Part shown: positions 13,531-25,774 of the stretch, in pieces
Layout of the letters: each line of letters starts with the position of its first letter
Position numbering within the stretch: position 1 is the first letter of the stretch
Origin: a virus
Virus genome (UHGV): UHGV-0204464
Length of the DNA stretch: 42,624 bases
Direction: 5' to 3' (one strand)
Notes under the pieces: generated by a model
What the model was told of the DNA's origin: nothing
Database searches by the model: none
What the model saw: the letters and a program-made list of their open reading frames with translations, nothing else
Made by a program: the position numbers and the translations under genes

Positions 13531-14592
13531 TTCAATTTTGTCCCACTCCCTGCCTCTGTCATCACGATACTGTGATGCCATGGTGTCCGACTTATGCCCG
13601 AGAAGATGTTGAGCAAACTTATCGCTTATCTGCTTCTCATAGAGTCTTGCAGACAAACTGCGCAACTCGTGAAAGGTAGGCGGATCCCCTTCGAAGGAAA
13701 GACCTGATGCTTTTCGTGCGCGCATAAAATACCTTGATACTGTGCCGGATGAAAGCGGTTCACGACGAGTAGATGCAATTATGGTTTCTCCGCCAAGAAT
13801 CTCTTTGCATTTATCAAGTGTTTCCTTCATTGATATCCCGAGAGCATCAACATGCAATGTTGTAGGGATGGCAATTTTTACGCCTGTTTTGCTTTGCTCG
13901 ACATAAAGATATCCATCTACGATATCAGACCACTTCATTTCGCATAAATCCCCAACTCGCTGCCCGGTAACAACAGCCAGTTCCATTGCAAGTCTGAGCC
14001 AACATGGTGATGATTCTGCTGCTTGATAAATTTTCAGGTATTCGTCAGCCGTAAGTCTTGATCTCCTTACCTCTGATTTTGCTGCGCGAGTGGCAGCGAC
14101 CGGGTTTGTTGTTATATGGCCTTCAGCTATTGCCTCTCGGAATGCATCGCTCAGTGTTGATCTGATTAACTTGGCTGACGCCGCCTTGCCCTCGTCTATG
14201 TATCCATTGAGCATTGCTGCAATTTCTTTTGTGGTGATGTCTTCAAGTGGAGCATCAGGCAGGCCCCTCCTTATTGCTTTAATTTTGCTCATGTAATTTA
14301 TGAGTGTCTTCTGCTTGATTCCTCTGCTGGCGAGGATTTTTTCGTAGCGATCAAGCCATGAATGTAACGTAACAGAATTATCACTGTTGATTCTCGCTGT
14401 CAGAGGCTTGTGTTTGTGTCCTGAAAATAACTCAATGTTGGCCTGTATAGCTTCAGTGATTGCTATCCTCCTGTCTCGGCCTAATCCAAACTCTTTACCC
14501 GTCCTTGGGTCCCTGTAGCAGTAATATCCATTGTTTCTTATATAAAGGTTAGGGGGTAAATCCCGGCGCTCATGACTTCGCCTTCTTCCCAT
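13522..14592 (-). CDS. int: Integrase (tyrosine recombinase), essentially lambda Int
   Basis: 356 aa; MGRRRSHERRDLPPNLYIRNNGYYCYRDPRTGKEFGLGRDRR... matches lambda Int along its length. Confidence 0.95.
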   Translation of the reverse strand: MGRRRSHERRDLPPNLYIRNNGYYCYRDPRTGKEFGLGRDRRIAITEAIQANIELFSGHKHKPLTARINSDNSVTLHSWLDRYEKILASRGIKQKTLINYMSKIKAIRRGLPDAPLEDITTKEIAAMLNGYIDEGKAASAKLIRSTLSDAFREAIAEGHITTNPVAATRAAKSEVRRSRLTADEYLKIYQAAESSPCWLRLAMELAVVTGQRVGDLCEMKWSDIVDGYLYVEQSKTGVKIAIPTTLHVDALGISMKETLDKCKEILGGETIIASTRREPLSSGTVSRYFMRARKASGLSFEGDPPTFHELRSLSARLYEKQISDKFAQHLLGHKSDTMASQYRDDRGREWDKIEIK

Positions 14593-14788
14593 TTCTGATC
14601 CTCTTCAAAAGGCTACCTGTTACTGGTCGATTTAAGTCAACCTTTACCGCTGATTCGTGGAACAGATACTCTCTTCCATCCTTAACCGGAGGAGGGAATA
14701 TCCTGCATTCGCGCACCCATCGACGAACTGTTTCAAGGCTTCTTGGGCGTCGCTGGCGTGCGTTCCACTCCTGAAGTGTCAAGTACAT
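14570..14788 (-). CDS. xis: Excisionase Xis
   Basis: MYLTLQEWNARQRRPRSLETVRRWVRECRIFPPPVKDGREYLF... (72 aa) matches lambda Xis; overlaps int start; track ORF extends upstream. Confidence 0.9.
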   Translation of the reverse strand: MYLTLQEWNARQRRPRSLETVRRWVRECRIFPPPVKDGREYLFHESAVKVDLNRPVTGSLLKRIRNGKKAKS

Positions 14789-14904
14789 CGCAAAGTCTCC
14801 GCAATTACACGCAAGAAAAGCCGCATTGATGCGGCAATGGTAGGTCTGGATATCATTGAGCAATGAACAGGCCTCATCGAGTGTGAGGCGGTGTTATTTC
14901 ATGG

Positions 14905-15249
14905 TTAGTCCTTGCGTAGCTCGCTGATTCTTCTGTAAGTCTCTGGTGCTTTGTTTCCGTGTATCTTCATTTCAAACTTCAACAGAGCAACGAGAGAATC
15001 CCATTCGTTGAGGATGCCTTTGAATGCCGGAACGCGCTTTGCAACCTTGTCGAATGAATCTCTGATTTCTGGAATCTGCTCAACAAGTGCAACGCATCGC
15101 CGGAAGTCTGCTGCGTCATGTGGAGCGCCGAAGTGATGACCATAGATATTTTTTTTCAGTCCACATGCGATTGAGGCAAGAGTTGCGCTACTGATGCCGA
15201 CATCGCCAGTTGATTGCCATTTCAAAACCTTCATAGCCAAATCTGACAT
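14905..15249 (-). CDS. Hypothetical early-left protein
   Basis: ORF with GGAGA RBS before the ATG at 15249 (MSDLAMKVLKW...). Confidence 0.5.
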   Translation of the reverse strand: MSDLAMKVLKWQSTGDVGISSATLASIACGLKKNIYGHHFGAPHDAADFRRCVALVEQIPEIRDSFDKVAKRVPAFKGILNEWDSLVALLKFEMKIHGNKAPETYRRISELRKD

Positions 15250-21664: not shown

Positions 21665-22246
21665 ATGAACAACTCATGGTGGCAGGAACTAATGCATTTT
21701 TTCCTGCAAGGAATGACACTTAAACAGTTGATTCATATGCTAATCATCCTGATCATATTGATTATTGTTATGCCGGTAAGCGTAAAAGAATGGATAAACC
21801 TGCATAATCCAGAAATCCTTCCTCATTACTGGATGTATTACATCCTGTTGTTTTGCGTTAGCTATGTGCTTAACGGCGTTGTTAATTCCGCTTATCACGC
21901 TGTGACTGAAAGAATTGAGGTATTCGCTGCTCAGAAGCGCAAATCTAAAGAAGAAAAATATGTGCAAGATTTGTTTGATTCGTTAACTCTTGGAGAAAGA
22001 GCGTATTTGGCATTCGCTGTAGCCGCTAATAACCAGCTACAAACGGAAAAGGGCGCTCATGAATCAATTTCATTGCTCAAAAAAGGACTCCTCGTTCGAA
22101 GGCCTCCTGCTGTTGGATATCCTGATACCGACCGTTTCGTTATCCCTGAAAGCTATAGACATGAGTGCTACATTAGGTTTGCCGGGAAGGCAGACAGCCT
22201 TATGGATGAACTTATCGCTCAGGATAAGCATGGCAAAAACAAGTAA
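21665..22246 (+). CDS. sieB: Superinfection exclusion protein B (SieB)-like membrane protein
   Basis: 193 aa with N-terminal hydrophobic segments (LIHMLIILIILIIVMPV; YWMYYILLFCVSYVL); lambda/P22 SieB is about 192 aa. Confidence 0.6.
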   Translation: MNNSWWQELMHFFLQGMTLKQLIHMLIILIILIIVMPVSVKEWINLHNPEILPHYWMYYILLFCVSYVLNGVVNSAYHAVTERIEVFAAQKRKSKEEKYVQDLFDSLTLGERAYLAFAVAANNQLQTEKGAHESISLLKKGLLVRRPPAVGYPDTDRFVIPESYRHECYIRFAGKADSLMDELIAQDKHGKNK

Positions 22247-22262
22247 TTAGCAAATGAATTTA

Positions 22263-22535
22263 TCATCTCGCCGTCAGTTGTTTTGATTTCCGGTAGCCTG
22301 CCGCGTAAAGAGCTACGTTCGGAAGACAAGTTGAACCTTCATATTTTCTGGTCAACGTTGTCAGAGTTATCACTTCTGCTCTCATTGCTGGTTTGAGCTT
22401 GCATTGCAAGACCACTCGTGAAGGGGTTGGCCTGTGTAGCTTGTCGGAGCTGATCGCCTCCTGACTTTGCAGATTTGCGCGACGAGCTCTACGGCGAGAA
22501 GCTGCGGTGCCTTTAAATTCTGTTTTTCTGGACAT
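22263..22535 (-). CDS. N-like transcription antiterminator (P22 gp24 family)
   Basis: Arg-rich motif TAASRRRARRANLQSQ near N-terminus; C-terminus LPNVALYAAGYRKSKQLTAR resembles P22 gp24; internal ATG at 22535 chosen over the longer track ORF. Confidence 0.7.
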   Translation of the reverse strand: MSRKTEFKGTAASRRRARRANLQSQEAISSDKLHRPTPSRVVLQCKLKPAMRAEVITLTTLTRKYEGSTCLPNVALYAAGYRKSKQLTAR

Positions 22536-22631
22536 GGATTCCTCCCGAATAAACTTTGGCGATGCAATCTCGAAGCTCCTCCTGAGACGGTTGCTTCGGC
22601 ATTGCATCCCACAGCTTATGTGGTTGGGTGA

Positions 22632-22760: not shown

Positions 22761-22940
22761 TGTTGTAAGTTGGCGTGGTTTTTTATAACGCTTTGTATTT
22801 AATAGTGTTGTTTTTTAGCGTGGATGTATTGCCTCGGCGATGTAAGGAGAGATCAGAATTGCGTGGTTTAGTGGGTTGCATCTATTTATTTTTCAATAAA
22901 TATAATTGGTTATGTGTTTTTAGGTGGGCGAACGTGAGGC

Positions 22941-22967
22941 AAAGAAAACCCGGCGCTGAGGCCGGGT
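22941..22967 (-). terminator. Rho-independent terminator ending the cI operon
   Basis: Minus strand ACCCGGC-CTCAGC-GCCGGGT hairpin followed by TTTTCTTT; directly after the 250-aa gene stop. Confidence 0.65.
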
Positions 22968-22971
22968 TGTA

Positions 22972-23724
22972 TTATGCTGCAAGTCTCTTAACCCAAGTCT
23001 CTCTTTTGGAGAATGGTAGAACTTGGCTTGATTCATGGAAGAGTAAGGAGAGTTGTTGCATTTGATCACCAATTGCTTCGCTGTCTATAACAACAAATCT
23101 GTTGTTATACTCCTCACTTGAAGCTTTAAGATCAATTAGTTTCCCAAGCAATGAGTAAGCACTATTCCAGCTTCCTCCGTGTTTCACGCTTGATGTAAAA
23201 ACGTATTTAGGTATGTCGGTTTTTATTGTTACAGGGACGGTAATTTGATGTCCACTCAAGCCATATACGTTTTCACGAAGAGAAAGTGCGTCTCTAAGCT
23301 CTGTGTGATATAGATAATCAATAACCATACTTTCAAACTTTTCAGCTTGAACTGGCTGATACCAGTCTAACGACAAAGTTGATGCGAGTATACCAGCTCT
23401 AATTATGTTCGATGTAATCGCACCGACATCCTTTTCTGTTGCCCAAGCAATGATTTCTCCTCGAGCATTGAGTTCTGCGCCTTCTTTAAGCAGTAATTGT
23501 CGTATCTCATCAAGTCGTTTTTTGGTAAGCGAGATCCCTCTTGCCTCCATATTCATTAAGGCATCGCATCTGTCACTAACTAAATACCTACCATTGACTT
23601 CACGGATAAAGGCACCGACATGCTCTCCATCATCACAGTAAGTGAATGGACTGATAATTCTCAAGGTCTTGCCTATTGGATGGCATTCGAAACCTAGTTG
23701 TGAGATCACTGTTGAGCACATCAT
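22972..23724 (-). CDS. Hypothetical protein B of cI-linked cassette (unknown function)
   Basis: 250-aa ORF; ATG overlaps stop of upstream gene (ATGA); no TM segment and no motif I recognise; AT-rich. Confidence 0.6.
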   Translation of the reverse strand: MMCSTVISQLGFECHPIGKTLRIISPFTYCDDGEHVGAFIREVNGRYLVSDRCDALMNMEARGISLTKKRLDEIRQLLLKEGAELNARGEIIAWATEKDVGAITSNIIRAGILASTLSLDWYQPVQAEKFESMVIDYLYHTELRDALSLRENVYGLSGHQITVPVTIKTDIPKYVFTSSVKHGGSWNSAYSLLGKLIDLKASSEEYNNRFVVIDSEAIGDQMQQLSLLFHESSQVLPFSKRETWVKRLAA

Positions 23725-24278
23725 ATTCCAAACCCCATTTGCCCCGACTCATCTTCAAGCGGTAAAGGTATTCTCCCAGAGTAAGTTATGTTCAGATGTT
23801 TACAGAAGTAATTCCAATACCCTACCAGGTCATCTGGGTTTATGTCATCTTCGATTGGAAACGCTATTCTATCACTATAGTATCCAGCTTCTTCATAGTA
23901 TACATGGTAGTGAGCACCGTAAATGATATCTTGGTACTTCGGATGATCGACCTTGTAACTATTCGTGTGTTTGTCAAAGTGATAGGTATCTACCGCGAAA
24001 ACCCTCTTGTTATGATAGAAAGCAATAATATTTATTTTAGGGTAAGAAATCGGGTCATCAGGTTCTGAATCCTGATCTGGTTTCCATTTCAGTTCAAACT
24101 TTAGCCCTTGTATAGGTATACAATCCTCATCCAAGGGGATGATATGGGCTTGTAGCCACATATCAGAGCGACTTGGTTTCTGTTTCCATTTAACGCCAGA
24201 AAAGTTAACTATTTTTTTACAATAAAGTACTTTATCAACTTCTACTTGGCTTGGCTGATAATCATCTATTTTTGCCAA
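23721..24278 (-). CDS. Hypothetical protein A of cI-linked cassette (unknown function)
   Basis: 185-aa ORF beginning 39 nt after the cI stop; first in-frame codon is TTG with GGCGG upstream (next ATG is 39 codons in); Tyr/His/acidic-rich; AT-rich. Confidence 0.55.
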   Translation of the reverse strand: MAKIDDYQPSQVEVDKVLYCKKIVNFSGVKWKQKPSRSDMWLQAHIIPLDEDCIPIQGLKFELKWKPDQDSEPDDPISYPKINIIAFYHNKRVFAVDTYHFDKHTNSYKVDHPKYQDIIYGAHYHVYYEEAGYYSDRIAFPIEDDINPDDLVGYWNYFCKHLNITYSGRIPLPLEDESGQMGFGI

Positions 24279-24317
24279 TGTTTACCGCCCTGTAAATTGT
24301 AGATAAAAGTGGTTTCA

Positions 24318-24977
24318 TCACCCAAACGTCTCTTCAGGCCATTGGCTGGCGATAACTTTCCCCACAACGGAACAACTCTCATTGCATGGGATCATTGGGT
24401 ATTGTGGGTTTAGTGGCTGTAGAAACACCTGACCGCTATCCCTGATCAGTTTCTTGAAGGTAAATTCATCACCACCAAGTCTGGCTATGCAGAAATCGCC
24501 GGGCTCAACAGCTTGCTCAGGGTCAACCAGAATTAACATCCCGTCAGGAAAGCTGGGTTTGGAACCTGTTGGTGCGGTCATTGAGTTACCTTCAACCTCA
24601 AGCCAGAATGCAGAGTCACTGGCTTTTTTGGTTGTGCTTACCAATCTCTCCGCATCGCCTTTGGTAAAGGTTCTGAGTTCTGGAGAGAACATCCCAGCCT
24701 GAACATGAGAAAAAACAGGGTACTCATATTGTTTTTTAACTGGGGCCGATGAGTATTCGCCAACAGGTGAAAATGTCCCGTCGTGGTTGAATGATATGTT
24801 ATCAATACCAAGGTATTTAAACACCACACCAATATCACTAAGAGATGGATGACGAGATCCGCGCAACCAGTGTCCAATCCCACCCTGCGTCATACCTAGC
24901 TCTTCGGCTAACTTCTCTTGAGTTATGCCGAGCTCTTTCATTCTGGATCTAGCCAGTTCATACCATTTCATTTTCAT
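24318..24977 (-). CDS. cI: CI-type prophage repressor (HTH plus LexA-like S24 peptidase domain)
   Basis: N-terminal HTH ([20 protein letters not shown]), C-terminal autocleavage-type domain ([17 protein letters not shown]); divergent from cro; start taken at MKMKWY. Confidence 0.8.
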
Positions 24978-25088
24978 GTCCTTATTATTACGCTCTGTAC
25001 TGGAACCATCCATGCACAATGTGTATTTTTACTTGTATTCGCAAAGTACATATTGTATTTTTTTATTCGTGTTTACTATGGAGGGCAT
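24978..25088. promoter_or_regulatory. OR/PR/PRM region between cI and cro
   Basis: Divergent intergenic region with AGTACATATTGTAT and TACTT..AAGTA partial palindromes related to the OL palindrome; TTGTAT-17-TATTTT promoter candidate; GGAGG RBS before cro. Confidence 0.4.
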
Positions 25089-25360: not shown

Positions 25361-25445
25361 GTTCCAAGATATCTGACCAACTAAGGCCATATGCGTTTCC
25401 ACGCATACCTTTCAACTAACTATTCACTATTGGAAATCTTAAGAA

Positions 25446-25742
25446 ATGGAAAGAACAAGTTACAGCAAACTATCACAGCGTGACGTTGATCGCGCAGAAA
25501 CAGATTTACTTATCAATCTGTCAGCTATTACCCAGCGCGGTCTGGCAAAGATGATTGGCTGTCATGAATCGAAGATAAGCAGAACGGACTGGAGATTTAT
25601 TGCTTCGGTCTTGTGTGCTTTCGGAATGGCATCAGACATCAGTCCGATTAGCAGGGCTTTTAAGTATGCGCTTGATGGACTCACCAATAAAAAACGCCCG
25701 GCGGCAACCGAGCGTTCTGAACAAATCCAGATGGAATTCTGA
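25446..25742 (+). CDS. cII: CII transcriptional activator
   Basis: 98 aa; C-terminus LTNKKRPAATERSEQIQMEF matches lambda CII; N-terminal half divergent. Confidence 0.85.
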   Translation: MERTSYSKLSQRDVDRAETDLLINLSAITQRGLAKMIGCHESKISRTDWRFIASVLCAFGMASDISPISRAFKYALDGLTNKKRPAATERSEQIQMEF

Positions 25743-25774
25743 GGTCATTACTGGATCAATCCACAGGAGTCATT

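What the first reader, a model, noticed from the sequence alone, without database searches (positions are those of the whole stretch)
22941..24317. Two-gene cassette co-transcribed with cI in the rexAB position: candidate undescribed defence system
Immediately downstream of cI on the same strand are a 185-aa ORF (39-nt gap, GGCGG SD, TTG start) and a 250-aa ORF (ATGA-coupled), closed by a strong rho-independent terminator at 22941-22967. This copies the lambda cI-rexA-rexB-tImm layout. Neither protein resembles RexA or RexB: there is no TM segment, and I recognise no known catalytic motif. The segment is visibly more AT-rich than cI and N. Genes in this slot are expressed from PRM in lysogens and are typically exclusion or abortive-infection systems.
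Basis: partly seen in the sequence, partly recalled or inferred. Interest (0 to 1): 0.85.

Follow-up and report, generated by a model that had tools for sequence, protein, structure and literature searches.

The report
Unstudied two-gene cargo in lambda's rexAB slot
A lambda-like phage carries two tightly linked genes of unknown function exactly where phage lambda keeps its rexAB exclusion genes; the slot and distant relatives suggest an untested anti-phage defence, and the same genes sit in about 4% of complete E. coli genomes, including Nissle 1917 and CFT073.

Summary
On the minus strand, cI (24318-25019) is followed after 39 nt by a 185-aa TTG-start ORF (orfA, 23721-24278). A 250-aa ORF (orfB, 22972-23724) overlaps it by ATGA. 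A hairpin terminator follows at 22947-22968.

The terminator is base-for-base lambda's tImm, so this is the rexAB slot by homology, not analogy. The cargo module is exactly 22969-24315. In 87 viral contigs with the same tImm, the slot holds at least 16 different cargoes. These include RexAB, BstA and a HicA toxin gene beside an unidentified 98-aa ORF. This cassette is the commonest cargo (22 loci).

Both proteins are under purifying selection and always occur as an ordered, overlapping pair. This holds at 25-30% identity, in a Pseudomonas phage and beside a retron.

- **orfA:** a confident model with no known fold, and an invariant Asp/Asn/His-x-His cluster.
- **orfB:** a type III secretion chaperone-like domain (DUF1828) plus a restriction-endonuclease-fold domain that lacks the canonical catalytic motif.
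- **Relatives:** both hit weakly the untested PADLOC candidate PDC-M24.

Verdict: a plausible lysogen-expressed defence module, a divergent branch of a computationally predicted family. Function and mechanism are unproven.

The parts
24318..25019 (-). cI-type repressor (HTH_3 + Peptidase_S24). GenBank records of identical phages annotate the start at 25013.
   Evidence: Pfam Peptidase_S24 E 1.3e-28 and HTH_3 E 2.1e-10. Annotated as cI in PhiR57_1.
24279..24317 (-). 39-nt spacer between the cI stop and the orfA start. It holds a GGGCGG Shine-Dalgarno-like element and no terminator.
   Evidence: Sequence. No terminator-like site on this strand other than tImm.
23721..24278 (-). orfA: 185 aa, TTG start, soluble and acidic (pI 5.3). 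It has a beta-rich fold with no solved relative. Invariant residues are K22, W31, R92, D97, N106, G121, H123, H125, F158 and P173; H104 is nearly invariant. The C-terminal tail is conserved but predicted disordered.
22972..23724 (-). orfB: 250 aa, ATG overlapping the orfA stop (ATGA). The N-terminal DUF1828 domain (about residues 1-117) has a type III secretion chaperone/YbjN-like fold. The C-terminal domain (about 128-249) has a restriction-endonuclease (PD-(D/E)xK) fold without the canonical catalytic residues.
22937..22968 (-). Rho-independent terminator, identical in sequence to lambda tImm (hairpin 22947-22968 plus T-tract).
   Evidence: alignment with lambda, PhiR11_1 and an E. coli prophage.
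22969..24315 (.). The exchangeable cargo module. Similarity to phages carrying other cargo stops exactly at these two junctions.
   Evidence: blastn breakpoints against PhiR11_1 (L002) and the E. coli prophage L004. Census of 87 tImm-bearing contigs.
22846..22946 (-). Conserved flank after tImm, nearly identical to lambda, leading into the OL/PL region upstream of N.
   Evidence: Alignment A5. N peptide at 22263-22607.

Best explanation
The cassette is a two-protein anti-phage (exclusion or abortive-infection) module expressed in lysogens. It is carried as interchangeable cargo in the lambda rexAB slot.

**Shown**
- It lies between the cI stop and a terminator identical to lambda tImm, with no intervening terminator.
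- It is one of at least 16 alternative cargoes at identical junctions. Two of the others, RexAB and BstA, are experimentally established defences.
- orfA and orfB form an obligate, ordered, overlapping pair under purifying selection.

**Inferred**
- The pair is transcribed with cI from PRM/PRE and so is made in lysogens.
- orfA is the enzymatic effector. It is made in small amounts from a non-ATG start. Its invariant Asp97/His104/Asn106/His123-x-His125 cluster looks like a metal-dependent active site.
- orfB is made by translational coupling and is its partner and sensor. The chaperone-like N-domain would hold orfA, possibly through orfA's conserved, disordered C-terminal tail. The degenerate nuclease-fold C-domain would bind nucleic acid or another cue from an invading phage.
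- Infection by a heterologous phage would release or activate orfA. It would then attack nucleic acid or a nucleotide pool and stop phage growth.
For: **Slot**
- The tImm hairpin is identical to lambda's and the cargo boundaries are exact.
- A census of 87 contigs found this cassette in 22 and a 41%/51%-identical variant in 10. It also found RexAB, a divergent RexAB, BstA (PADLOC E 4e-106), a HicA toxin gene (94 aa, Pfam E 8e-11) next to an unidentified 98-aa ORF, and PDC-S43-like and PDC-M63A-like genes.
- The cassette occurs behind at least 3 different repressors.

**Position conserved over long divergence**
- Izhakiella, Yersinia, Xenorhabdus and Providencia prophages.
- A metagenomic relative directly after an S24 repressor.
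- A Pseudomonas D3-like phage, where the A homologue is unannotated (hhalign probability 98.9%).

**Independent defence association**
- Both proteins hit PADLOC PDC-M24A/B. That candidate was defined by being embedded inside known defence systems.
- A 25%-identical pair lies between a retron I-C RT-Toprim gene (E 6.5e-29) and a resolvase.

**Pairing**
- There is an ATGA-type 4-nt overlap in the window and in all three distant metagenomic loci. The variant cassette overlaps by 13 nt instead.
- orfA has a non-ATG start in 8 of 10 loci.

**Structures and motifs:**. DUF6978 is described as having conserved histidines forming a putative metal site.
Against: - No experiment bears on the function.
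- The PADLOC and Pfam hits for orfA are weak and partial (E about 5e-4 and 2e-4; 22 bits against a 29.6-bit cut-off). PDC-M24 itself is untested.
- Not every occupant of the slot is a defence. RexA also modulates the lysogeny-to-lysis switch, and many cargoes are unknown.
- Which protein is the effector is not resolved. orfA evolves faster than orfB (58-65% against 73-77% identity in the same genome pairs), which in many systems marks the sensor. orfB carries the only recognisable nuclease fold.
- The A-B complex and the role of orfA's tail are inferred. No complex model could be run.
- Co-transcription with cI is not demonstrated.
Confidence: 0.5

Rival explanations
1. It is still a defence module, but with the roles reversed. 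orfB is the effector, a non-canonical nuclease held in check by its own chaperone-like domain. orfA is the fast-evolving sensor or specificity subunit that recognises a phage product.
For: - orfA diverges faster than orfB.
- PADLOC returned several distinct PDC-M24A profiles as hits but only two PDC-M24B profiles.
- The PDC-M24 second-gene family (FAM_00065, taken here to be the B type) also pairs with another upstream family in the PADLOC candidate table.
Against: - The canonical D...(D/E)xK residues are absent. K173 and H159 are not strictly invariant in the most distant homologues.
- orfA's invariant D/H/N/HxH cluster looks more like an active or metal site than a recognition surface.
Confidence: 0.25
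2. It is a toxin-antitoxin-like addiction or stabilisation module that keeps the prophage in the population. It has no direct anti-phage role.
For: - Two small overlapping genes, the first with a weak start codon.
- A HicA-type toxin gene, next to an unidentified 98-aa ORF, occupies the same slot in other phages.
- The cassette persists in the defective Nissle 1917 prophage.
Against: - No match to any toxin or antitoxin family in Pfam, NCBIfam or PADLOC.
- No DNA-binding antitoxin-type domain.
- No hit on 72,556 plasmids, where addiction modules are common.
- Many toxin-antitoxin systems are themselves defences, so this rival overlaps with the main reading.
Confidence: 0.12
3. It serves the prophage's own life cycle or the host's physiology. 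It might tune the lysogeny-to-lysis switch, as reported for lambda RexA, or act as a lysogenic-conversion factor in extra-intestinal E. coli.
For: - Lambda RexA/RexB are reported to assist the transition to lytic growth (Thomason et al. 2021, cited in PMC12315714).
- The cassette is present in CFT073, Nissle 1917 and the E. coli type strain.
Against: - The pair occurs behind unrelated repressors and also away from any repressor, next to a retron and a resolvase. That argues against a function tied to one switch.
- There is no DNA-binding or signal-peptide feature.
- Relatives are embedded in defence systems.
Confidence: 0.1

Closest known systems
Lambda RexA-RexB exclusion system
   Same: Same genomic slot by homology: between the cI stop and an identical tImm terminator. 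It is also two genes on the cI strand, presumably expressed in lysogens, and is exchanged at the same junctions.
   Different: No sequence similarity. There is no membrane protein, whereas RexB is polytopic; neither protein here has a transmembrane segment. The folds differ.
PADLOC phage defence candidate PDC-M24 (DUF6978 + DUF1828 gene pair; Payne et al. 2024 preprint)
   Same: Two genes in the same order. orfB matches the PDC-M24B profile end to end (E 4.7e-10). orfA matches the C-terminal half of the PDC-M24A and DUF6978 profiles, which includes the conserved histidines.
   Different: The hits are weak; orfA is below Pfam's cut-off and covers only profile positions 79-134 of 148. The lambdoid clade is longer (185 aa against about 148). 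It lives in prophage immunity regions rather than embedded in restriction-modification or other defence operons. PDC-M24 has never been tested.
BstA (prophage abortive-infection protein of BTP1-like phages)
   Same: It occupies the same repressor-to-tImm slot in a related contig (L021; PADLOC E 4e-106). It is a lysogen-expressed defence.
   Different: It is a single 300-aa protein, unrelated in sequence. No BstA hit for orfA or orfB.
PD-(D/E)xK nucleases (Can2, NgoMIV/Cfr10I/PspGI, NucS, Bax1)
   Different: The defining acidic and lysine catalytic residues are not conserved. There is no Pfam nuclease family match.
Type III secretion chaperone / YbjN / DUF2170 fold proteins
   Different: There is no secretion context. 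The domain is fused to a nuclease-fold domain. Its conserved acidic residues (D32, D51, E90) have no known counterpart.

Membership tests
Lambda RexAB | Located between cI and tImm on the cI strand | tested here: met
   The tImm hairpin is identical to lambda's and the cargo junctions match.
Lambda RexAB | Sequence homology to RexA and RexB | tested here: not met
   BLASTP gives no hit below E = 2. No Rex hit in PADLOC.
Lambda RexAB | Second gene encodes a polytopic membrane protein (RexB) | tested here: not met
   Maximum 19-residue hydropathy is 1.19 for orfB and 0.45 for orfA.
PADLOC PDC-M24 | Second protein matches the PDC-M24B profile | tested here: met
   E 4.7e-10 over residues 2-249 against profile positions 4-254 of 256. 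The variant cassette also hits.
PADLOC PDC-M24 | First protein matches the PDC-M24A profile | tested here: inconclusive
   E 4.8e-4, covering only profile positions 79-134 of 148. 6 of 24 family members hit one PDC-M24A profile, and 3 each hit two others; best E 1.2e-4.
PADLOC PDC-M24 | Adjacent genes in A-then-B order | tested here: met
   Same order and overlapping in every locus examined.
PADLOC PDC-M24 | Protects against phage | not testable with these tools
   PDC-M24 is itself only a guilt-by-embedding candidate.
Pfam DUF6978 | Score at or above the gathering cut-off (29.6 bits) | tested here: not met
   22 bits, E 2.2e-4, matching only the C-terminal half. 11 of 24 relatives give similar weak hits.
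Pfam DUF1828 | Score at or above the gathering cut-off (22 bits) | tested here: met
   33.5 bits, E 5.3e-8, residues 26-110.
PD-(D/E)xK nuclease superfamily | alpha-beta-beta-beta-alpha-beta core fold | tested here: met
PD-(D/E)xK nuclease superfamily | Conserved catalytic D ... (D/E)-x-K residues on strands 2 and 3 | tested here: not met
   Strand 2 starts with H159. Strand 3 has K173 with no conserved acidic residue two positions before it. The C-domain invariants are S157, G158, I161, W186, D198, P237 and W244.
Type II toxin-antitoxin modules | Match to a known toxin or antitoxin family, or a DNA-binding antitoxin | tested here: not met
   No such family in Pfam, NCBIfam or PADLOC.

The most novel reading that the evidence does not exclude
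orfA-orfB is a genuine, mechanistically new anti-phage system. Its effector has a previously unseen fold with a His/Asp metal centre, controlled by a chaperone-like protein with a pseudo-nuclease domain. It would be the unidentified 'other factor' in prophage 3 that Bury et al. (2018) invoked to explain why E. coli Nissle 1917 is fully refractory to lambda and Stx phages. It would also be the commonest occupant of the rexAB slot in natural lambdoid prophages.
Probability: 0.3. Interest if true: 0.75.

Novelty: new variant of a known kind. Interest (0 to 1): 0.55.

Why it matters
The cI-rexAB-tImm operon is the textbook example of a prophage gene set that protects its host. This work shows the slot is a sharply bounded cargo site with at least 16 alternative contents. 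The commonest content in the sample is this uncharacterised pair, not RexAB.

The exact cassette is in 241 of 5,426 complete E. coli genomes, and a variant is in 61 more. Carriers include the probiotic Nissle 1917, the uropathogen CFT073 and the species type strain.

If it is a defence, three things follow:
- It would affect phage therapy and Stx-phage spread in these lineages.
- It would give the untested PDC-M24 family its first tractable model.
- It would assign a function to DUF1828, to the orfA family (a distant, sub-threshold relative of DUF6978) and to a protein fold with no solved relative.

Tried and rejected
**Searches that found nothing**
- Profiles of both families against PDB sequences: nothing better than E 0.2.
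- NCBIfam: nothing for either protein.
- The orfB C-domain alone against Pfam at E <= 10: no DUF1829 or nuclease family.
- tblastn of orfB against 72,556 plasmids: no match.

**Literature**
- PDC-M24, DUF1828 and DUF6978 appear in no functional study.
- The PhiR phage names are not in the library.
- The Genome Research 2025 lambdoid paper does not discuss this cassette.

- The AlphaFold-database fold library was unavailable.
- The search for related loci rejected the diverse alignment A4.
- Two scripts failed on file naming.

**Readings rejected**
- RexAB homologue: no similarity and no membrane protein.
- BstA, or any system named in PADLOC apart from the weak PDC-M24 hits: no other match.
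- Canonical nuclease: the motif is absent.
- An internal promoter serving orfA: the only promoter-like site near the spacer would start transcription downstream of the TTG.
- Chance ORFs: dN/dS <= 0.14.

Full report
**1.

On the minus strand the window has a cI-type repressor at 24318-25019 (Peptidase_S24 E 1.3e-28, HTH_3 E 2.1e-10). A 39-nt spacer follows. Next comes a 185-aa TTG-start ORF (orfA, 23721-24278) and then a 250-aa ORF (orfB, 22972-23724) whose ATG overlaps the orfA stop as ATGA.

Four nucleotides after the orfB stop lies an 8-bp G+C-rich hairpin with a T-tract (22947-22968). It is the only terminator-like site on that strand between 22600 and 25300. Its folding energy is -14.6 kcal/mol, z = -3.1.

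The other stated details also check out:
- Neither protein has a transmembrane-grade hydrophobic stretch.
- The cassette is 39.5% GC, against 46.3% for cI and 49.9% for N.
- Neither protein resembles RexA or RexB.
- N (22263-22607) and SieB (21665-22246, plus strand) flank the region as in lambda.

**2. This is the rexAB slot by homology**

Aligning the region after orfB with lambda shows that the hairpin and T-tract (AACCCGGCCTCAGCGCCGGGTTTTCTTTGCCTCAC) are identical to the sequence after lambda rexB. The next ~90 nt are nearly identical.

Comparison with phages that share this immunity region but carry other genes there places both breakpoints exactly:
- PhiR11_1 carries a 283 + 163 aa pair.
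- An E. coli prophage carries a 180 + 258 aa pair.
- In both cases similarity runs up to 22968 and resumes at 24316-24318.

The exchangeable module is therefore 22969-24315. The terminator belongs to the conserved frame, not to the cargo.

**3. The slot is a cargo hot spot**

Scanning IMG/VR for the exact 35-nt tImm returned 87 loci with readable upstream sequence. The cargo between the S24 repressor and tImm was:

| Cargo | Loci |
|---|---|
| This cassette (behind at least three repressor types) | 22 |
| 180 + 258 aa variant (one pseudogenised) | 10 |
| Lambda RexAB | 2 |
| RexAB pair at 42-47% identity | 1 |
| BstA (PADLOC E 4e-106) | 1 |
| HicA toxin gene (94 aa, Pfam E 8e-11) beside an unidentified 98-aa ORF | 4 |
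| PDC-S43/DUF3024 protein with two further genes | 8 |
| PDC-M63A-like/DUF6932 pair | 1 |
| ClpP/SDH-protease-like protein | 4 |
| P63C-domain protein | 4 |
| Several unknown cargoes | the rest |
| Empty slot | 1 |

Two occupants are experimentally established defences, by my knowledge of the RexAB and BstA literature. BstA's location next to the repressor is also noted in PMC8585504 (listed).

**4. Who carries the cassette**

The 2.2-kb region is 100% identical in four isolated phages (GenBank and RefSeq copies of two of them make six records): ev207, ev017, PhiR57_1 and PhiR63_2. There the genes are annotated 'hypothetical' or 'DUF1828'. In an Stx1a phage the cassette is joined to a different cI.

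The cargo module is at least 99% identical in 241 of 5,426 complete E. coli genomes. It is always single-copy and chromosomal. Carriers include ATCC 11775, CFT073 and Nissle 1917. The variant is in 61 more genomes, including an O104:H4 strain.

In Nissle 1917 the cassette sits in the defective prophage at icd. This corresponds to 'prophage 3' of Bury et al. 2018. In their gene table two hypothetical genes, EcN_1291 and EcN_1292, lie between SieB and cI. That paper concluded that an unidentified further factor of prophage 3 must explain Nissle's complete resistance to lambda and Stx phages.

**5. An obligate, ancient gene pair under selection**

- **Close homologues.** Both proteins are restricted to Enterobacterales and Aeromonas, and they co-occur on the same contigs.
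- **Size of the orfA family.** An exhaustive profile search of 1.84 billion representatives found only 20 clusters for orfA.
- **Distant metagenomic relatives.** The three A relatives examined (22-32% identity to orfA) are each followed by a 247-252 aa B-type gene with a 4-nt overlap.
- **Species-representative genomes.** The peptide-pattern scan found the pair in five species, all inside lambdoid immunity regions next to cI-, O- and P-like genes.
- **A 32%-identical A relative** lies directly after the C-terminus of an S24 repressor.
- **A Pseudomonas aeruginosa D3-like phage** has the pair two genes downstream of its CI-like repressor. The A gene there is unannotated but matches the family profile at 98.9% probability.
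- **A 25%-identical pair** lies between a retron type I-C RT-Toprim gene (E 6.5e-29) and a resolvase.
- **Selection.** dN/dS against orthologues is 0.05-0.14, with saturated synonymous sites.
- **Start codon.** orfA starts with GTG or TTG in 8 of 10 loci.

**6. What the proteins look like**

- Across relatives down to 21% identity the invariant residues are K22, W31, R92, D97, N106, G121, H123, H125, F158 and P173. H104 is nearly invariant.
- H123 and H125 alternate on one beta-strand, and D97, H104 and N106 sit on the two strands before it. This is the pattern of a metal or active site. That reading is an inference.
- The weak DUF6978 hit (22 bits, below the cut-off) covers exactly this region. 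A preprint describes DUF6978 as having conserved histidines forming a putative metal site.
- The C-terminal tail (P173, S-G-Q) is conserved yet predicted disordered (pLDDT 43-64). This suggests a partner-binding segment.

*orfB.* The model (pLDDT 83) has two domains.
- **Catalytic motif:** the canonical acidic and lysine residues are not conserved. What is conserved in the C-terminal domain is S157-G158-(H159), I161, W186 and D198, an acidic residue at 214, and P237 and W244 near the C-terminus.
- **Pfam:** no model matches the C-terminal domain.

**7. Relation to known systems**

PADLOC gives orfB a full-length hit to PDC-M24B (E 4.7e-10) and orfA a partial hit to PDC-M24A (E 4.8e-4). The variant cassette and other family members behave the same way.

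PDC-M24 is a two-gene 'phage defence candidate' (cassette CAS_00098, count 153 in the supplementary table). It was proposed because such cassettes are embedded inside known defence systems. It was not among the candidates tested.

The lambdoid pair is therefore best described as a divergent, prophage-borne branch of a computationally predicted and experimentally untested family. It is not a RexAB, BstA or canonical nuclease family member (see the membership table).

**8. Most likely mechanism and rivals**

I commit to a lysogen-expressed defence module (about 0.5, with a further 0.25 on the same function with the roles reversed). In this model orfA is a low-abundance metal-dependent enzyme. 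orfB is its chaperone-like partner and sensor, with a degenerate nuclease-fold nucleic-acid-binding domain.

- **Shown:** the slot, the pairing, the selection, the folds and the motifs.
- **Inferred:** co-transcription with cI, the A-B complex, which protein is the effector, the trigger and the target.

The main rival keeps the defence function but swaps the roles. It is favoured by orfA's faster divergence and by orfB's nuclease fold. Lesser rivals are a toxin-antitoxin-type stabilisation module and a role in the phage's own switch or in host physiology.

**9. Verdict**

This is a real, well-delimited and widespread two-gene cargo in lambda's rexAB slot. It is probably a defence, with a mechanism that cannot be read from known families. 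It is moderately interesting and cheap to test.

It is not surprising in kind, because other defences are already known at this slot and the wider family has been flagged computationally. What is new is the exact slot homology, the cargo census, the structural description and the link to Nissle 1917 and CFT073.

Noticed in passing
window 22937-22968 and loci L020-L110: The cI-to-tImm slot of lambdoid phages holds at least 16 different cargoes at identical junctions in 87 viral contigs. They include BstA, RexAB and a divergent RexAB, a HicA toxin gene beside an unidentified 98-aa ORF, PDC-S43/DUF3024, a PDC-M63A-like/DUF6932 pair, a ClpP-like protease, a P63C-domain protein and several complete unknowns (single 120-aa and 126-aa genes in 10 and 8 loci). 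It looks like a ready-made discovery site for prophage defences.
   Followed up: partly
window 25401-25767: The 'phage repressor (pr)' gene EcN_1294 of E. coli Nissle 1917 reduced lambda and Stx phage plating about 200-fold in Bury et al. 2018. Its published cloning and qPCR primers map to the cII gene (25446-25742), not to cI.
   Followed up: yes
L002 2069-3449 (phages PhiR11_1 and 2G7b; also L028, L039): The same immunity region carries an alternative pair. One protein is 283-285 aa and soluble. The other is 163 aa and very hydrophobic, with apparently several membrane spans. This is RexA/RexB-like in architecture, but it has no sequence similarity and no PADLOC or Pfam hit.
   Followed up: partly
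L111 3486-4004 (Pseudomonas phage VB_PaD_phPA-G, PP083311.1 about 14515-15033): An unannotated 172-aa gene upstream of, and overlapping, the annotated DUF1828-type gene is an orfA-family member (hhalign probability 98.9%). The pair lies two genes downstream of the CI-like repressor.
   Followed up: yes
L009 3-341 and 2048-2596: A distant A-B pair (25%/29% identity) lies between a retron type I-C RT-Toprim gene (PADLOC E 6.5e-29, partial) and a resolvase. This is a defence-island-like mobile context.
   Followed up: partly
window 24276-24278 and loci L004, L013-L017, L011: orfA uses a non-ATG start (GTG, or TTG here) in 8 of 10 loci, while orfB always starts with ATG. In the window and most loci that ATG overlaps the orfA stop (ATGA); the variant cassette overlaps by 13 nt instead. 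This suggests a deliberately low and fixed A:B ratio.
   Followed up: partly
L042: One copy of the variant cassette is decayed: the A gene is split into 114 + 68 aa and B is shortened to 224 aa. The module can therefore be lost without loss of the prophage.
   Followed up: no
L019 997-2601 (Nissle 1917 chromosome next to icd): In Nissle 1917 the prophage carrying the cassette is integrated at icd. Its integrase is truncated by an IS3-family element, yet the SieB-N-cassette-cI-cro-cII-O-P block is intact.
   Followed up: no
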